DNA of 64,000 nucleotides, taken from NCBI RefSeq assembly GCF_964213995.1, contig NC_135830.1:19406001-19470000 (forward strand), given 5' to 3'. Made by a program: the position numbers and the translations under genes. Under the pieces are notes generated by a model. That model worked only from the letters and a program-made list of their open reading frames with translations, searched no databases and had not been told where the DNA came from. Position 1 is the stretch's first letter. Each line of letters begins with the position of its first letter. This DNA comes from Mustelus asterias (Eukaryota). Of the stretch, positions 5,365-62,589 are shown piece after piece.

Positions 5365-6936
5365 TTTTATTATTCATTTGTGAGACATGGGCGTCACTCG
5401 CTGCCCAGCATTTATTGCCCATCCCTAGGTGCCCGAGAGCAGTTGAGAGTCAACCACACTGCTGCGGCTCTGGAGTCACATTAAGCCAGAGCAGGTAAGG
5501 GCGGCACATTTCCTTCCCTTGCAGACACTATAGTTAAGAAAGTCCACCAATGCCTCGACTTTCTCAGGAGACTAAGGAAATTTGGAATGTCAGCTATGAC
5601 TCTCACCAACCTTTACAGATGCACCACAGAAAACATTCTTTCTGATTGTATCACAGCTTGGTTTGGCTCCTGCGCTGCCCAAGACCGCAAGAAACTGCAA
5701 AGATTCGAGAATGAAGCCGAGTCCACCACGCAAACCATCCATTGACTCTGTCTACACTGCCCGCTGCCTCGGAAAAGCAACCAGTATAATTAAGGACCCC
5801 AGGCACCCCGGACACATACTCTTTTCCACCTTCTCCCGTCGGGAAGAAGATACAACAGTCTGAGGTCACATACCAACCGATTCAAGAACAGCTTCTTCCC
5901 TGCTGCCATCAGACCTGTGATTGAACCTACCTTATATTAAGTTGACCTTTCCCTGCATCCTAGCTATGACTGCAAACCTACATTCTACACCCTTTCCTTT
6001 ACGGGCGGCACGGTAGCGCAGTGGTTAGCACTGCTGCTTCACAGCTCCAGGGTCCCGGGTTCGATTCCCCGGCTTGGGTCACTGTCTGTGTGGAGTTTGC
6101 ACATTCTCCTCGTGTCTGCGTGGGTTTCCTCCGGGTGCTCCGGTTTCCTCCCACAGTCCAAAGATGTGCGGGTTAGGTTGATTGGCCAGGTTAAAAATTG
6201 CCCCTTAGAGTCCTGTGATGCGTAGGTTAGAGGGATTAGCGGGTAAATATGTGGAGGTAGGGCCTGGGTGGGATTGTGGTCGGTGCAGACTCGATGGGCC
6301 GAATGGCCTCCTTCTGCACTGTAGGGTTTCTATGATTCTATGATTTACATCTCGATGAACGATATGCCTTGTCTGTACAGCGCGCAAGAGACAAAACCTT
6401 TTACGCTATACTGATACATGTGACAATAATAAATCAAATCAAATCGAATAAAGTTTATTTATTAGTCACAAGAAAGGCTTACATTAACACTGCAATGAAG
6501 TTACTGTGAAATTCTCCTAGTTGCCACAAAACGGCGCCTGTTCGGGTTAAGTGAGGGAGAGTTTAGCATGGCCAATGCACCTCACCAGCACGTTTTTCAA
6601 ACTGTGGGAGGAAACCGGAACATTCGGAGGAAACCCACGCAGACATGCGGGGGGGAGAACGTAGAGATTCTGCACAGACAGTGATCCGGGCTGGAAATCG
6701 AGCCCTGGTCCCTGGCGCTGTGAGGCAGCAGTGCTAACCACTGTGCCACCATGAACCAGATGGAGTGTTCCAATAATTAGCAATGAGTCATGGTCATCAA
6801 TCGACTATTAATTCCAGATCTCTTTTATTGAATTCAAATTCCACAACCTCTGTGGCGAGTTTCGAACCCGGGATCCCAGAACCTTAGCAGAGTTTCTGGA
6901 TTAATAGTCGAGCGATAATACCACCAGGTCATCGCC
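5365..6936. mobile_element. Nested stack: second tRNA-headed SINE containing a Rex fragment, HE1 SINE (6003-6344, plus) and an alternative-tail SINE (6450-6750, minus)
   Basis: Outer SINE halves at 5365-5520 and 6750-6936; paralogous stacks at 26110-27290 and 56300-57530. Confidence 0.7.
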
Positions 6937-7110
6937 TAAAAAAAGCTGAAATTATAAAGTAACACACACAAATAACAAATTGTACGAATAATTAGTTATC
7001 TTTCTTCTTCCCAATTGATCAGTGCTACAACAGACGTTGGCAGAAGCCGCTTCCGTCAAGCAAAGAGGCGAGAGTTCCTTTCCGTGGATTCAACTGTTGT
7101 TATCAGTGTA

Positions 7111-25795: not shown

Positions 25796-27462
25796 TCATG
25801 CCGGCATAACCTTTCGGAAGGAAATCTGCCTACATGTGACTCCAGAGCCATAGCAATGTGGTTGACTCTCAACTGCCCTCTGGCATCTAAGGATGGGCAA
25901 TAAATGCTGGCCAGCCAGCGACCCCCCAATGCCCCACAAATGAATGAAGAAAATCGGGCAAATTACCCCGAATCTATGTGGAGTTTGCACGTTATCCCTG
26001 TGTCTGCGTGGGTTTCCTCCGGGTGCTCCCGTTTCGTCCCACAATCCAAAGATGTGAGGGCTAGGTGGATTGGCCATGTTAAATTGCCCCTTAGTGTCAG
26101 GGGGACTAGCCAGCATTTACTGCCCATTCCTAGATGTCCGCGTGCAGTTGAGAGTCAACCACATTTCTGTGGCTCTCGAGTCATATATAGGCCAGACCAC
26201 GTAAGGACGGCACATTTCCTTCCCGAAGGGGCATGCCAACACTATCGTTAAGAAAGCCCACCAACGCCTCTACTTTCTCAGAAGACGAAGGAAATTTGGC
26301 ATGTCAGTTACGACTCTCGCCAACTTTTACAGATGCACCAGAGAAAGCATTGTTTCTGGTTGTATCAAAGCTTGGTATCGCTCCTGCTCTGTCCAAGACT
26401 GCAAGAAAGCACAAAGGGTCGTGAATGAAGCCCAGACCATCACGCAAACCAGCCTCCCATGTATTGACTCTGTCTAAACTTCCCGCTGCCTCGGAAAAGT
26501 AGGCAGCATAATCAAGGACCCGACGCATCCCGGACATTCTCTCTTCCACCTTCTTCCGTTGGGAAAAAGATACAAAAGTCTGAGGTCACGTACTAACAGA
26601 CTCTAGAACAGCTTCTTCCCTGCTGCCATCAGACTTTTGAATAGGCCTACCTCGCATTTAGTTGATCTTTCTCTATAGCCTAGCTATGACTATAACACTA
26701 CATTCGGAACTCTCTCCTTTCCTTCTCTATGAACGGTATTCTTCGTCTCTCCAACATGCAAGAAACAACACTTTTCACTGTATACTAATACATGTGACAA
26801 TAATAAATCAAATTAAATTTATTTATTAGTCACAAGAAAGGCTTACATTAACACTACAATTAAGTTACTGTGAAATTCCCCTCGTCGCCACACACCGGGG
26901 CATGTTTGGATACACTGAGGGAGAAGTTAGTATGTCCATTGCACCTAACCAGCGCGTCTTTCAGGCTGTGGGAGGAAACTGGAGGACACCCATGAAGGCA
27001 TGGGAGAACGTGCAAACCCCACACAGACCTTTCCCGGACCCAATCTGGGAATTGAACCAAGGTCCCTGGCGCTGTGAGGCAGCAGTGCTCATCACTGTGC
27101 CACCGTGAAACAGATAGAGTTTTCCGATGATTGGCAATAGATTCATTGTCATCCGTAGATTCTCAATTCCAGATCTCCTTTATTGAATTCAAGTTCCACC
27201 ATCTGCCGTGGCGGGATTCGAACCCGGGACCCCAGAACATTAGTTGAGTTTCTGGGTTAATAGTTTAGCGATACAACCACTCGGTCATCATTTGGAAAAG
27301 CTGGAATTGTAAATTAACGCAAACAAATGACAAATTGTGTGAATAATTAGTTATCTTTGTTGTTCGCAATTGATCATTGCTGCAACAGACATTGGCAGGA
27401 GTAGCTTCTGTCGGGCAAAGAGGGGAGAGATCCTTTCCGTGGAGTCAACTATTATCACTGCA

Positions 27463-56168: not shown

Positions 56169-57562
56169 GAGGAAACACTCAAACAGTGACCCATTCCGAC
56201 AATCAAACTCCTCCTTCCAACTGCTGGCAAGTGCTTCTAAATTTTCTGAAATGAATTCGGAATAAGTGGACAACTCGGGGTAATTTGCACCAATTTTCTT
56301 TTATTTATTCATAGGGCATGGGCGTCACTGGTTGGCCAGCATTTATTGCCATTCCCTAGATGCCTGAGGGCAGTTGAGAGTCAACCACATTGCTGTGCCT
56401 CTGGAGTCACATGTAAGCCAGAGCAGGTAAGGACGGCACATTCCTTCCTTAAAGGGCATGTCGACACTATATAGTTAAGAAAGCCCAACATTGCCTTGAC
56501 TTTCTCAGGAGACTAAGGAAATTTGGCACATCAGCTGCGACTCTCACCAACTTTTACAGATGCACCATAAAAAGCATTATTTCTGGCTGTATCACAGCTT
56601 GGTGTGGCTCCTGCTCTGCCCAAGACCACAAGGAACTACAAAGGGTCATGAATGAAGCCCAGTCCATCACGCAAATCAGCCTCCCATCCAGCGACTCTGT
56701 CTACACTTGCTGCTGCCTTGGAAAAGCAGCCAGCATAATCAAGGACCCCACGCACCCCGGACATTCTCTCTTCCACCTTCTTCCGTCGGGAAAAAGATAC
56801 AAAAGTCTGAGGTCATGTACCAACTGACTCAAGAACAGCTTCTTCCCTGCTGCCATCAGACCTTTGAATGGACCTACCTTGCATTAAGTTGATCTTTCTC
56901 TACACCCTAGCTATCACTGTAACACTACATTCTTCACTCTCTCCTTTCCTTCTCTATGAGCAGCATTCTTTGTCTGTACAATATGCAAGAAACAATACAT
57001 TTCACTGTACATTAATACATGTGACAATAATAAATCAAATCAAATCAAGTTTATTTATTAGTCACAAGTAGGCTTACATTAACACTGCAATTAAGTTACT
57101 GTGAAATTCCCCTCGTCACCACACACCGGCGCCTGTTCGGGTACACTGAGGGAAAATTTAACATCTCCAATGCGCCTAACCAGAACGTCTTTCAGACTGT
57201 TGGAGGAAACCAGAGCACCCGGAGGAAACCCACGCAGACACAGGGAGAACGTGCAGATTCTGCACAGAGTCTGACCCAAGCCGGGAATCAAGCCAGGATC
57301 CCTGGTGCTGTGAGGCAGCAGTGCTAACAACTGCACCACCGTGAACCAGATGGGGTTTTCCAACAATTGGAAATAGTTTCATGGTCATCAGCAGATTCTT
57401 AATTCCAGATCTCGTTAATTGAATTCAAATTCCACCACCTGCCGTGGCGGGATTCGAACCCAGGACCACAGAACATTGGCTGAGTTTCTGGATTAATAGT
57501 CTGGTGATAATACCATAGGCCATCGCCTCAGAAATGCTGAAATTGTAAATTAATGCAAGCAA

Positions 57563-59350: not shown

Positions 59351-60574
59351 ACTTGATGGTTTGAGTTATAAGGAGAGGCTGGATAGACTGGAACTCTTTT
59401 CCCCAGAGCGTAGGAGATTTAGGAGAGAACTTATAGAGGTCTATAAAATAATGAAGGTCACAGATCAGTTACATAGTCAACAGCTTTTCCCAAAGGTAGG
59501 GGAGTCTAAAACTAGAGGGCATAGGTTTAAGGTAGGAGGGGAGAGATACAAAAGGGTCCAGGGAGGCACTTCTTTCACACAGAGGGCGGTGAATGTCTGG
59601 AATGAGCTGGCAGAGGTAGTAGTGGAGGTGGGTACAATTTTGTCTTTTAAAAAGCACCTAGACAGTTACATGGGTAAAATGGGTATAGAGGGATATGGGC
59701 CAAATGCAGGCATTTGGGACTAACATAGTGTTAAAAACTAGGCGGCATGGACAAGTTGGGCTGAAGGGCCTGTTTCCATGCTGTAAAGCCCTGTGACTCT
59801 ATACATACTGACGGCACCAGCATAAAGTATGGGACTGAGAAACCAGCCACATAATAACTTCAGACACTGCTCTGGTTGGTGTAGTTTACATGGATTTCAG
59901 CAAAGCCTTTGACAAAGTTCCCTACGGGAGATTTATCAAGAAGGCTAATGCACATGGGATACAGGGTGATCTGACAAGGTGGATTCATAATTGGCTTAGC
60001 GGTAGGAGACAGAGTGTGGTGACAGGCAGCTGCTTTAGTGACTGGAGGCCAGTAACCAGTGACGTACCACAGAGATCCATTCTGGGCCCTCTATTATTCG
60101 TCATTTATATAAGTGACATAGATGACTACGTGGGGGGGGTAGGATCAGTAAGTTTGCCGATGACACAAAGGTTGGCCGGGTGGTTAACAGTTAGGTTGAG
60201 TGTCTTGGGTTACAGGAAGATACAGATGAGATGGTCAAAAGGACGGAGAAATGGCAGATGGAATTTAACCCTGAAAAGAGTGAGGTGATGCACTTTGGAA
60301 GGAGTAATTTGACAAGGAAGTATACGATGAAAGGTCTGACACTGGGAAGTTTTGAAGAACAAAGGGACCTTGGCGTGTTTGTCCATTGATCTCTGAAGGT
60401 GGAAAGGCAGGTTAAAAAGGTGGTGAAAAAGGCACATGGCACACTCACCTTTATCAATTAGGGTATAGATTACAAAAGCAGAAAGGTCAAGATGGAGTTG
60501 TGTAGAACTTTGGTGAGGCCACAGCAGGAGTACTGTGTGCAGTTCGGATCACAGATTTACCAGGATGCTATCTG

Positions 60575-60921
60575 AGAAATCATAGAAACCCTACAGTACA
60601 GAAAGAGGCCATTCAGCCCATCGAGTCTGCACCGACCACAATCCCACCCAGGCCCTACCCCCATATCCCTACATATTTTACCCGCTAATCCCTCTAATCT
60701 ACGCATCCCAGGACACTAAGGGGCAATTTTAGCATGGCCAATCAACCTAACCTGCACATCTTTGGACTGTGGGGGAGGAAACCGGAACACCCGGAGGAAA
60801 CCCACGCAGACACGAGGAGAATGTGCAAACTCCACACAGACAGTGACCCGAGCCGGGATTCGAACCCAGGTCCCTGGAGCTGTGAAGCAGCAGTGCTAAC
60901 CACTGTGCTACCGTGCCGCCC
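60575..60921 (-). mobile_element. HE1-type V-SINE fused behind the tRNA-Arg copy
   Basis: Full-length copy. Confidence 0.9.
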
Positions 60922-60935
60922 ATAAATTATCGCAC

Positions 60936-61008
60936 CGAGCCAGCCAGGAGTCGAACCTGGAATCTTCTGATCCATAGTCAGACGCGTTATCCATTGCGCC
61001 ACTGGCCC
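60936..61008 (-). tRNA. tRNA-Arg(ACG) body with anticodon changed to ATG; probable retro-pseudogene
   Basis: 73 nt GGGCCAGTGGCGCAATGGATAACGCGTCTGACTATGGATCAGAAGATTCCAGGTTCGACTCCTGGCTGGCTCG, matching vertebrate tRNA-Arg-ACG as I recall it except C35T. No T4 terminator follows. Confidence 0.9.
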
Positions 61009-62589
61009 ACAATCTGGAATGGAACATTTAAGTTATGAAGAGAGGTTGGATAGCCTTGGGTTGTTTCCGTTGCAGTAGAGAAGACTGAGGGGCGACCTGA
61101 TCGAGGTGTTCAAGATTATGTGGGGCATGGACAGGGTGAATAGTTAGCAGCTGTTCCGCTTAGTTGAAGTGTCAGTTACGAGGGGACTCAAGTTAAAAGT
61201 GAGGGGTGGGAGGTTAAGGGAGGATTTGAGGAAAAACGTTTTTACTCAGAGGTGGTGGCGGTCTGGAGTACACTGCCTGGGAGGGTGGTGGAGACGGGAT
61301 ACCTCACATCATTTAAAAGATACCTGGATGAGAATTTGGCATGCCACAATATTCAAGGTTGTGGGCCAAGTGCTGGCACGTGGGATTAGGTGAGCAGGTC
61401 AGGGCATTTCATGCATCGTTGCAGACACGATGGGCCGAAGGGCCTCTTCTGCACTGTAGCAATTCTGTGATTCTGCCTTGATGAGATATTCAGCATTGCA
61501 TATTTGCACGATTATGTCCAATCTTCACTTTGCTGAATGCTAGTTTATTTCATAGAATCCATGGAATCCCTACAGTGCAGAAGAGGCCATTCGGCCCATC
61601 GGGTCTGCACCGACCACAATCCCACCCAGGCCTTATTCCCGTAACCCTACATATTTCCCTGTTAATCTCCTGACTCTAGGGTCAATTTAACACGGCCAAT
61701 CCACCTGACCCGCACATCTTTGGATAGTGGCAAGAAACCCCACGCAAACACGGGGAGAACATGACGTTGGGGTGAATAATTGAGAGCATTAACGTAATTC
61801 TACTGCAACATTGGTGTTTATATTGAAGCATCTGCACTGTGCTCTTGATTCCATTTGGCACTTATTCTGAATGGAATGGTGACCTGGCACATTAATCTAA
61901 AACAACTTTCAGTGACGTTTTCCAGAGAGAGCCTAGAGAAAACATTCCCCTTGTCTATGGCAGCATGAAGTTGAGCACTTGAAATGCCATAGCATTCAAG
62001 GCTAGGGAGTAAGTGCTGGAAGATTGGATTATAATTGATGGTTGATTGATGGCCATGCCAACAAGGTGGACCAAAACTGAAAAGCTCCATGACTCTATAA
62101 CGATGACTCTAAAGGAAATGCCTGAACTAAAATATTGGGCTCAAATACCAGTGATAATAACATTATGATTTGTAATAATCCTTCACAAGGATTACAATTT
62201 TGTCTCCATCAATGTGTCCTTCATTTCCGAGTTCAATACTGAAAATTATTCCTCAAAAGTACTTCTATCAAACTACCAAAGATACAAGTCTAAATTTCTT
62301 CAGGATTTCAGCATGGGCAAAGCATTCATAGTCTGATAGCAATTGTAACTGATAAATATCGACCCAAATGGACTGGAGAGCTGGAGGTCCTCTGATGTAG
62401 CACCGGTCCATCCATTTGTGTGCAGTGTAGATTTACCAGAATGACACCAGGATAGCAAGGGTTAAATCACAAGGTGGTGAAATAAGATAAATGAGGATTG
62501 TATTCCTCGAAATTTTGTAGGGTCAGCGGATGATTATTTGAAAGTTTTCAGGAGAGCATTAACGTAATTCTACTGTAACATTGGTGTTG

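What the first reader, a model, noticed from the sequence alone, without database searches (positions are those of the whole stretch)
60570..61016. tRNA-Arg + HE1 SINE chimera that appears to have inserted as one unit
Seen (minus strand): about 3 nt of leader, a full 73-nt tRNA, a 14-nt spacer with no T4 terminator, then a complete HE1 SINE. The whole is bounded by ATCTG repeats (60570-60574, 61012-61016) that interrupt a CR1 sequence. Inference: Pol III read through from a real tRNA gene into a SINE inserted in its trailer, and the pre-tRNA-SINE transcript was retroposed. This would be a snapshot of how a dimeric SINE arises.
Basis: partly seen in the sequence, partly recalled or inferred. 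Interest (0 to 1): 0.7.

Follow-up and report, generated by a model that had tools for sequence, protein, structure and literature searches.

The report
Shark SINEs capture unprocessed tRNAs
An unprocessed transfer RNA and a complete short jumping element sit here fused as one insertion, one of probably hundreds of one-off fusions in this genome, likely made when the copying enzyme jumped from one RNA to the next; they offer a natural record of a step long proposed for the birth of new jumping elements.

Summary
The anatomy is as described: CAGAT, a 3-nt leader, a 73-nt tRNA-Arg (72 of 73 identical to ACG genes), a 14-nt spacer, a full HE1-type SINE, CAGAT, inside a dead LINE. Insertion as one unit is supported. 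The proposed route is not: the junction is unique, no Arg master locus was found, and the spacer is the ordinary trailer of SINE-free Arg genes. Instead the element belongs to a genome-wide class. A T-loop + TTT + SINE-head pattern gives 567 hits against 52 for its control; 38 of the first 100 are Rfam tRNAs of many kinds. They keep leader, trailer and introns, lack CCA, join mostly in the gene's T-run terminator, pair with two SINE types of different ages, and carry short duplications around the whole unit. Best reading: independent end-to-end template jumps by LINE reverse transcriptase from the SINE RNA 5' end to U-ended pre-tRNA (inferred). No daughter family was seen, so this is raw material for a dimeric SINE, not one. 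U6/SINE chimeras are the published parallel. The scan noted this class before on other DNA (e1-9828889, e1-8159181). An empty allele was not tested.

The parts
61012..61016 (-). 5' copy of the 5-nt target-site duplication (CAGAT)
   Evidence: host colinear after removal of insert and one copy
61009..61011 (-). 3-nt pre-tRNA 5' leader (TGT), the same as in one group of Arg(ACG) genes
   Evidence: L004-L007 end in gctgt; similarity to genes stops here
60936..61008 (-). tRNA-Arg(ACG) copy, no CCA, anticodon decayed to ATG (60975-60973)
   Evidence: Rfam 60.8 bits; 72 of 73 identical to gene L004
60923..60935 (-). pre-tRNA 3' trailer ending in TTT(A); 12 of 13 identical to the trailer of SINE-free Arg genes
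   Evidence: L008-L012, L014-L016; exact variant found only here
60922..60923 (-). join: AT between the T-run and the SINE head; the A can be read as trailer or as SINE leader (possible 1-nt microhomology, inferred)
   Evidence: linkers of 0-3 nt in 46 of 46 chimeras
60575..60921 (-). full-length HE1-type SINE (tRNA-related head, tail shared with the host LINE type)
   Evidence: 94.5% to best window copy; 97.0% to L048; tail shared with LINE end
60570..60574 (-). 3' copy of the target-site duplication (CAGAT)
61017..61475 (+). host LINE, 3' part (decayed ORF2 C-terminus and 3' tail); the chimera lies antisense to it
   Evidence: the RRLRGDLIEVFKI motif is recalled as CR1-type
59881..60569 (+). 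host LINE, part on the other side of the insertion (decayed; left end is only as far as was queried)

Best explanation
This is a single, one-off insertion of an unprocessed tRNA-Arg transcript fused to the front of a complete HE1-type SINE, likely made when the LINE reverse transcriptase finished the SINE RNA and jumped end-to-end onto the U-rich 3' end of a pre-tRNA. Shown: the parts, the duplication around the whole, SINE-free source genes, and a large class of independent fusions with the same layout. Inferred: reverse transcription primed at the target on the SINE tail ran to the SINE 5' end; untemplated A residues on the cDNA paired with the oligo(U) end of a nascent pre-tRNA in the nucleus; copying continued to the pre-tRNA start; the joint cDNA was integrated. 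The product is most likely dead: the anticodon has decayed, and if transcribed (first T4 is 531 nt downstream) RNase P/Z would be expected to cut the tRNA off, which may be why no fusion was seen to found a family.
For: Class size: 567 pattern hits against 52 for the reverse-complement T-loop control, among 310,103 SINE-head matches. Of the first 100 listed (contigs C1-C5), 64 were neither SINE-head type; 60 of these were scanned and 37 have an Rfam tRNA at or above 29 bits at the join, plus L139: 38 of 100, about 215 genome-wide by extrapolation. One unit: duplications of 4 nt or more around tRNA+SINE in 21 of 40 (permutations 11.7) and of 5 or more in 11 of 40 (3.1), 0 of 1000 permutations reaching either; around the SINE alone 13 (13.9) and 5 (3.9), no excess. 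Unprocessed partner: introns kept in 10 of 10 full-length Leu-CAA-type copies (by eye) and in Arg-TCT, Tyr, Ile-TAT and Pro copies; the CCA version of the pattern gives 4 hits, none tRNA-like by eye. U-end: in two searches with no T constraint 7 of 9 Arg and 13 of 18 Leu joins have TTT within 3 nt of the head against at most 10% of all heads (31,193 of 310,103). In 13 chimeras whose trailer matched a gene by eye the join lies in the gene's first T4. Independence: one Leu trailer is joined to both SINE types and to copies 85-95% like the window SINE, with different linkers; one clade for six such SINEs is rejected, p-AU 0.0045. Gene flank is not carried: 26 of 30 alignments start within 7 nt of the tRNA or inside it. 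Extra T's: heads of a second element end in CAAT plus T's where 3 of 5 unjoined copies continue with A's. Biochemistry: R2 RT needs untemplated addition to jump and adds mostly A (PMC8857657, abstract and section 10). RtcB works poorly on 3'-OH or 5'-triphosphate ends (PMC6789731, passages), the ends expected here.
Against: No sequence feature separates a cDNA jump from an RNA ligation outright, and human U6/L1 chimeras, once read as template switches, arise by RNA ligation (PMC6789731; PMC8857657 section 10 doubts a physiological need for jumping). This copy is the exception: its source family has T3 at the join and the first T4 at +30, and L038 shows a transcript passing that T3. One intact tRNA-Cys in a Cys cluster has an old SINE right behind its trailer (L248, 1 of 110 distinct tRNA entries examined). 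19 of 40 chimeras have no duplication of 4 nt or more. 38 of the 46 verified chimeras were selected by a pattern requiring TTT. The one-clade group was named after a first tree had been seen. R2 is not the enzyme at work here.
Confidence: 0.62

Rival explanations
1. RNA ligation first: an RNA ligase such as RtcB joined the pre-tRNA 3' end to the SINE RNA 5' end, and the fused RNA was retroposed in one pass.
For: Gives the same layout, orientation and duplication. Shown for U6/L1 (PMC6789731). RtcB handles pre-tRNAs in the nucleus (same paper, passages).
Against: RtcB needs a 2',3'-cyclic phosphate and a 5'-OH; primary Pol III transcripts end in 3'-OH and start with a triphosphate (established knowledge). 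The SINE partner keeps its 5' end, though the patterns selected for that. No join after a splice site was noticed, but it was not searched for.
Confidence: 0.16
2. One reading: a SINE inserted at the T-run behind a real tRNA-Arg gene, Pol III read through, and the long transcript was retroposed; the master has since been lost or is collapsed in the assembly.
For: Only T3 at this join and the family can read past it (L038). One master-like locus exists for Cys (L248). Tandem arrays turn over and can be under-assembled (inference).
Against: No Arg master among 9 joins or 26 genes; none of 18 Leu joins lies in the C13 array of source genes; 26 of 46 keep T4 or more at the join; every event would need its own lost master.
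Confidence: 0.13
3. Two separate insertions: a pre-tRNA retrocopy and a SINE landed next to each other at different times, and CAGAT is chance or belongs to the first.
For: L038 is such a case: a pre-tRNA inserted with its own duplication of about 12 nt into a SINE head. SINE heads show a slight excess of TTT upstream (about 10% against 6.9% at random window positions).
Against: No duplication around the SINE alone here or as a class; no repeat of the SINE head upstream here; strong excess of the sense arrangement.
Confidence: 0.06

Closest known systems
U6/L2, U6/Mon-1 (platypus) and U6/AnolisSINE2 (lizard) chimeras; Doucet et al. 2015, PMC4476161 (section 10 read whole; passages)
   Same: Pol III RNA 5' of a SINE or LINE mobilised by a stringent non-L1 LINE, same orientation, short duplications (1-9 bp in 72.5% of 40), read as template switching.
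   Different: Partner there is U6, nearly always 5'-truncated in platypus, tens of copies. Here it is mostly full-length unspliced pre-tRNA of many kinds on a full-length SINE, an estimated 200 or more.
tRNA/LINE-1 chimeras of human; PMC13174262 (passages)
   Same: tRNA and retroelement inserted together within one duplication.
   Different: 21 loci, typically tRNA halves, mostly antisense, 9-19 bp duplications, ascribed to twin priming. Here whole precursors in sense.
PittSINE origin from TguSINE1 by switch to tRNA-Asp; Suh et al. 2017, PMC5729268 (passages)
   Same: CR1-mobilised SINE RNA to tRNA template switch, proposed as the birth step of a SINE.
   Different: There the head was replaced and a family arose, with the event inferred. 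Here the tRNA is added in front of an intact head, the events are visible one by one, and no family was seen.
Pre-tRNA retropseudogenes of mammals (Schmitz et al. 2004; paper not held; seen only as cited in PMC4476161)
   Same: Unprocessed tRNA written back into DNA, pointing to nuclear recruitment.
   Different: L1-made and tailless, with no SINE partner; L038 resembles this kind.
HE1 V-SINE / HER1 LINE pair of sharks and rays (PMC3747384, table row)
   Same: tRNA-related SINE sharing its tail with a LINE, in what appears to be a shark genome.

Membership tests
Small-RNA/retroposon chimeric retrocopy | Small RNA 5', retroposon 3', same orientation, directly joined | tested here: met
Small-RNA/retroposon chimeric retrocopy | One target-site duplication around both parts | tested here: met
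   CAGAT with restored colinearity; class test
Small-RNA/retroposon chimeric retrocopy | Source gene exists without the retroposon; gene flank not carried | tested here: met
   26 of 30 loci
Small-RNA/retroposon chimeric retrocopy | Empty allele or orthologue lacks both parts | not tested
   no reads were laid; no related genome is held
Small-RNA/retroposon chimeric retrocopy | Join made at cDNA level and not by RNA ligation | not testable with these tools
   needs RNA data or biochemistry
Dimeric SINE family | Several copies with the same junction and different flanks | tested here: not met
   junction unique; look-alike Leu joins not one clade
Dimeric SINE family | Master locus | tested here: not met
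   none for Arg; arrays may be incomplete
Functional tRNA-Arg gene | Intact cloverleaf and anticodon | tested here: not met
   fold intact but C35 changed to T
Functional tRNA-Arg gene | Gene-type upstream flank and nearby terminator | tested here: not met
   LINE sequence upstream; first T4 531 nt from the start
HE1 (V-SINE) | tRNA-related head and 3' tail shared with a partner LINE | tested here: met
HE1 (V-SINE) | V-domain and identity to the published HE1 consensus | not testable with these tools
   no repeat library; only the table row of PMC3747384
CR1-clade host LINE | RT phylogeny or match to a reference CR1/HER1 | not tested
   only a recalled ORF2 C-terminal motif and the shared tail

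The most novel reading that the evidence does not exclude
Shark CR1-type reverse transcriptase routinely jumps from a finished SINE cDNA onto any U-ended Pol III transcript close by in the nucleus, preferring transcripts from gene arrays on the same chromosome. The genome then holds a fossil library of hundreds of primary, unspliced pre-tRNAs that maps Pol III starts and stops, seeds new tRNA loci, and is the clearest natural footprint of end-to-end template jumping.
Probability: 0.3. Interest if true: 0.75.

Novelty: new variant of a known kind. Interest (0 to 1): 0.52.

Why it matters
Template switching is the standard explanation for how SINEs gain or swap tRNA heads, but it is usually inferred from finished families, and the best-studied chimera (U6/L1) turned out to be an RNA ligation product. 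Here there are hundreds of separate events whose ends (U-rich 3' end, intact SINE 5' end) suit a reverse-transcriptase jump and suit RtcB poorly, so jump against ligation becomes testable on a natural set. The copies also record leaders, trailers and introns of primary tRNA transcripts, and they will inflate tRNA gene counts in shark annotations. This single copy is probably inert.

Tried and rejected
tRNA-His (ARAGORN): rejected, one CpG-type change from Arg(ACG) genes. Dimeric SINE family and master locus: see membership. Duplication around the SINE alone: no excess. Mature tRNA capture: 4 hits, none tRNA-like by eye, not Rfam-scanned. Idea that most TTT-preceded SINE heads are captures: rejected; of 40 consecutive such heads fetched, 0 had a same-sense SINE directly upstream, 0 had an Rfam tRNA, and 1 had a truncated tRNA by BLAST (L254); one more in that run, L040, was already held; 0 of 40 control heads had a tRNA at the head by BLAST. 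Public runs: 20 of 23 listed hold 0.26-0.39 of the words, probably repeat words; none was laid, so they are no evidence. U6 and 5S partners were not searched for. Papers: 10 searches found no report of full-length pre-tRNA/SINE chimeras in sharks; Buzdin 2003 and Schmitz 2004 were not held, the HE1 papers and Repbase were not seen, and no supplement was opened (those of PMC4476161 and PMC13174262 list chimeras and may bear on novelty). PMC13343379 has no passage on tRNA; PMC4494074, PMC7245038 and PMC4758252 were seen as passages only.

Full report
OBSERVATION. The window is G000:C71:19406001-19470000 in a 3.68-Gb genome; 'shark' rests on the repeat content and on earlier notes, not on a call of mine. 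On the minus strand the element reads CAGAT (61016-61012), TGT, a 73-nt tRNA (61008-60936; Rfam 60.8 bits), a 14-nt spacer, a SINE from 60921 to 60575, and CAGAT (60574-60570). The tRNA is Arg(ACG) with C35 changed to T, its only difference from gene L004. The host is a decayed LINE on the plus strand whose 3' end shares the SINE's tail. With the insert and one CAGAT taken out, the flanks are colinear with another copy of that LINE.

A DNA search with the tRNA and junction scored 40 of 711 candidates and returned 30 loci. 26 are ACG genes with the same upstream flank family and no SINE; their trailers match the spacer at up to 12 of 13 positions. The exact trailer variant occurs only in the window. 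A pattern for any Arg 3' end followed by a SINE head gives 9 places, each with a different junction and unrelated flanks. So there is no family and no Arg master in this assembly.

A GENOME-WIDE CLASS. The general pattern (T-loop, 16-40 nt, TTT, 0-3 nt, SINE head) has 567 matches; the control with the T-loop reversed and complemented has 52, some of them sense tRNA ends because the motif can be self-complementary. The first 100 listed (C1-C5) were fetched: 29 are heads of a second element, 7 are truncated heads of the same SINE, 64 other. Of these 64, 60 were scanned (left out: L067, a duplicate of L066, and L136, L138, L139); 37 have a tRNA at or above the Rfam cut-off at the join and 4 more score just under it; L139 scored 73.1 bits. 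That is 38 of 100, about 215 genome-wide by extrapolation and a lower bound, since the pattern is exact: five more Leu joins with decayed heads turned up among 7 loci picked. Against 310,103 head matches this is roughly 0.07% or more. Two further chimeras appeared unasked among the best tRNA hits (L146, L148). About 15 amino-acid classes are present, named by ARAGORN and by recall of vertebrate tRNA sequences.

ONE UNIT. 46 chimeras were analysed: the 38, L146, L148 and six Arg copies (left out: L032 and L033, 5'-truncated, and L038). 40 have a complete SINE 3' end (28 window type, 12 second type). Matches of at least 4 nt flank the whole unit in 21 of 40 (permuted 11.7) and of at least 5 nt in 11 of 40 (3.1); none of 1000 permutations reached either. 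Around the SINE alone there is no excess (13 against 13.9; 5 against 3.9).

THE PARTNER IS A PRIMARY TRANSCRIPT. Trailers run 7-24 nt to a T-run (T3 20, T4 23, T5 2, T6 1), then 0-3 nt, then the head (38 of the 46 were selected for TTT). Without that selection, 7 of 9 Arg and 13 of 18 Leu joins have TTT against at most 10% of heads. Where a source gene was at hand, 13 joins fall in its first T4, and similarity upstream ends within 7 nt in 26 of 30 alignments (30 of 61 chimeras found a match, and the reference set includes some chimeras). Introns are kept. A CCA-ended version gives 4 hits, none tRNA-like by eye.

INDEPENDENT EVENTS. The trailer of the C13 Leu array is joined to both SINE types, at different ages and with different linkers; six window-type partners do not form one clade (p-AU 0.0045; group named after a first tree).

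MECHANISM. Shown: layout, single duplication, SINE-free sources, U-rich joins, independence. Inferred: an end-to-end jump. R2 RT needs untemplated addition to jump and adds mainly A (PMC8857657), which would pair with oligo(U). Extra T's at joins of the second element fit this, or U-tailing of the RNA. RtcB ligation, proven for U6/L1, is much reduced with 3'-OH or 5'-triphosphate ends (PMC6789731), but other ligation routes are not excluded. Read-through remains possible for this copy, whose family has T3 at the join and T4 only at +30, whose transcripts can pass the T3 (L038), and in view of L248; it fits the class poorly, as 26 of 46 keep T4 or more.

COMPARISON AND NOVELTY. Closest are the U6/Mon-1, U6/L2 and U6/AnolisSINE2 chimeras (PMC4476161); human tRNA/L1 chimeras are halves and mostly antisense (PMC13174262); a SINE-to-tRNA switch was proposed for PittSINE (PMC5729268). 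Ten paper searches found no report of this class in sharks, within a library that lacks most subscription papers. The scan's own notes describe it in this genome (e1-9828889) and in another (e1-8159181); I reached the reading before opening them and do not count them as support.

VERDICT. Real and non-random; a new variant of a known kind; interest 0.52. Confidence in a single insertion is about 0.9, in the template jump 0.62. Left open: an empty allele, expression, jump against ligation, and the apparent closeness of chimeras to their source arrays.

Noticed in passing
G000 C71, C6, C13, C4 (L039, L146, L181-L183, L333, L177): Chimeras often lie on the contig of their source genes: the window copy and 4 of 26 Arg genes on C71; L146 1.3 Mb from its same-trailer Lys gene; 3 of 8 Leu chimeras of one trailer on C13, which holds the array (binomial p 0.0013, post hoc; 4 of 13 with later loci); L177 62 Mb from its gene. 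Several others (L031, L036, L037, Leu-CAG) do not.
   Followed up: partly
L248:6933-7006: Intact tRNA-Cys inside a Cys cluster with an old, decayed SINE directly behind its short trailer: a possible master-like locus or a locally captured copy that was kept.
   Followed up: partly
L038 (same place as L003): Pre-tRNA-Arg with a 22-nt trailer inserted into a SINE head with its own duplication of about 12 nt; a separate, two-step kind.
   Followed up: partly
L204, L329, L336, L338: Pre-tRNA joined to what look like 5'-truncated LINE pieces and not to a SINE (LINE identity by eye).
   Followed up: partly
29 of 100 loci, e.g. L131, L060, L063; unjoined copies at window 57417-57529, 27182-27290, 6827-6937: The head of a second tRNA-related element is joined to the SINE in the same way, often with T's that the unjoined copies lack. 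Earlier notes suggest this head belongs to a Deu-domain SINE or Zenon LINE; not checked.
   Followed up: partly
L064, L068, L071, L082, L085, L112, L134: Truncated HE1-type heads joined in front of a full SINE head, 6 of 7 ending in a T-run at the join.
   Followed up: partly
L037 and 11 other full copies: A second SINE type shares the first about 210 nt with the window SINE but has a different tail.
   Followed up: partly
L146: Chimera with a perfect tRNA-Lys(TTT) (74.1 bits) and a SINE 96% like the window copy: a young event and the best candidate for an expressed retrocopy.
   Followed up: no
L238:2855-2945 and L121: tRNA-Pro(AGG) genes of this genome carry an intron (18 nt by ARAGORN).
   Followed up: no
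L254: tRNA-Glu-like nt 1-59 followed by a short T-run and a SINE head: a 3'-truncated, possibly U-tailed partner.
   Followed up: no
window 60552-60553: The host LINE lacks about 45 nt some 17 nt beyond the insertion site compared with other copies (by eye).
   Followed up: no
G000 C13:57.60-57.77 Mb and C16:97.3-98.6 Mb: Large tandem arrays of tRNA-Leu(CAA, intron) and of tRNA-Lys(TTT)/Thr genes.
   Followed up: no
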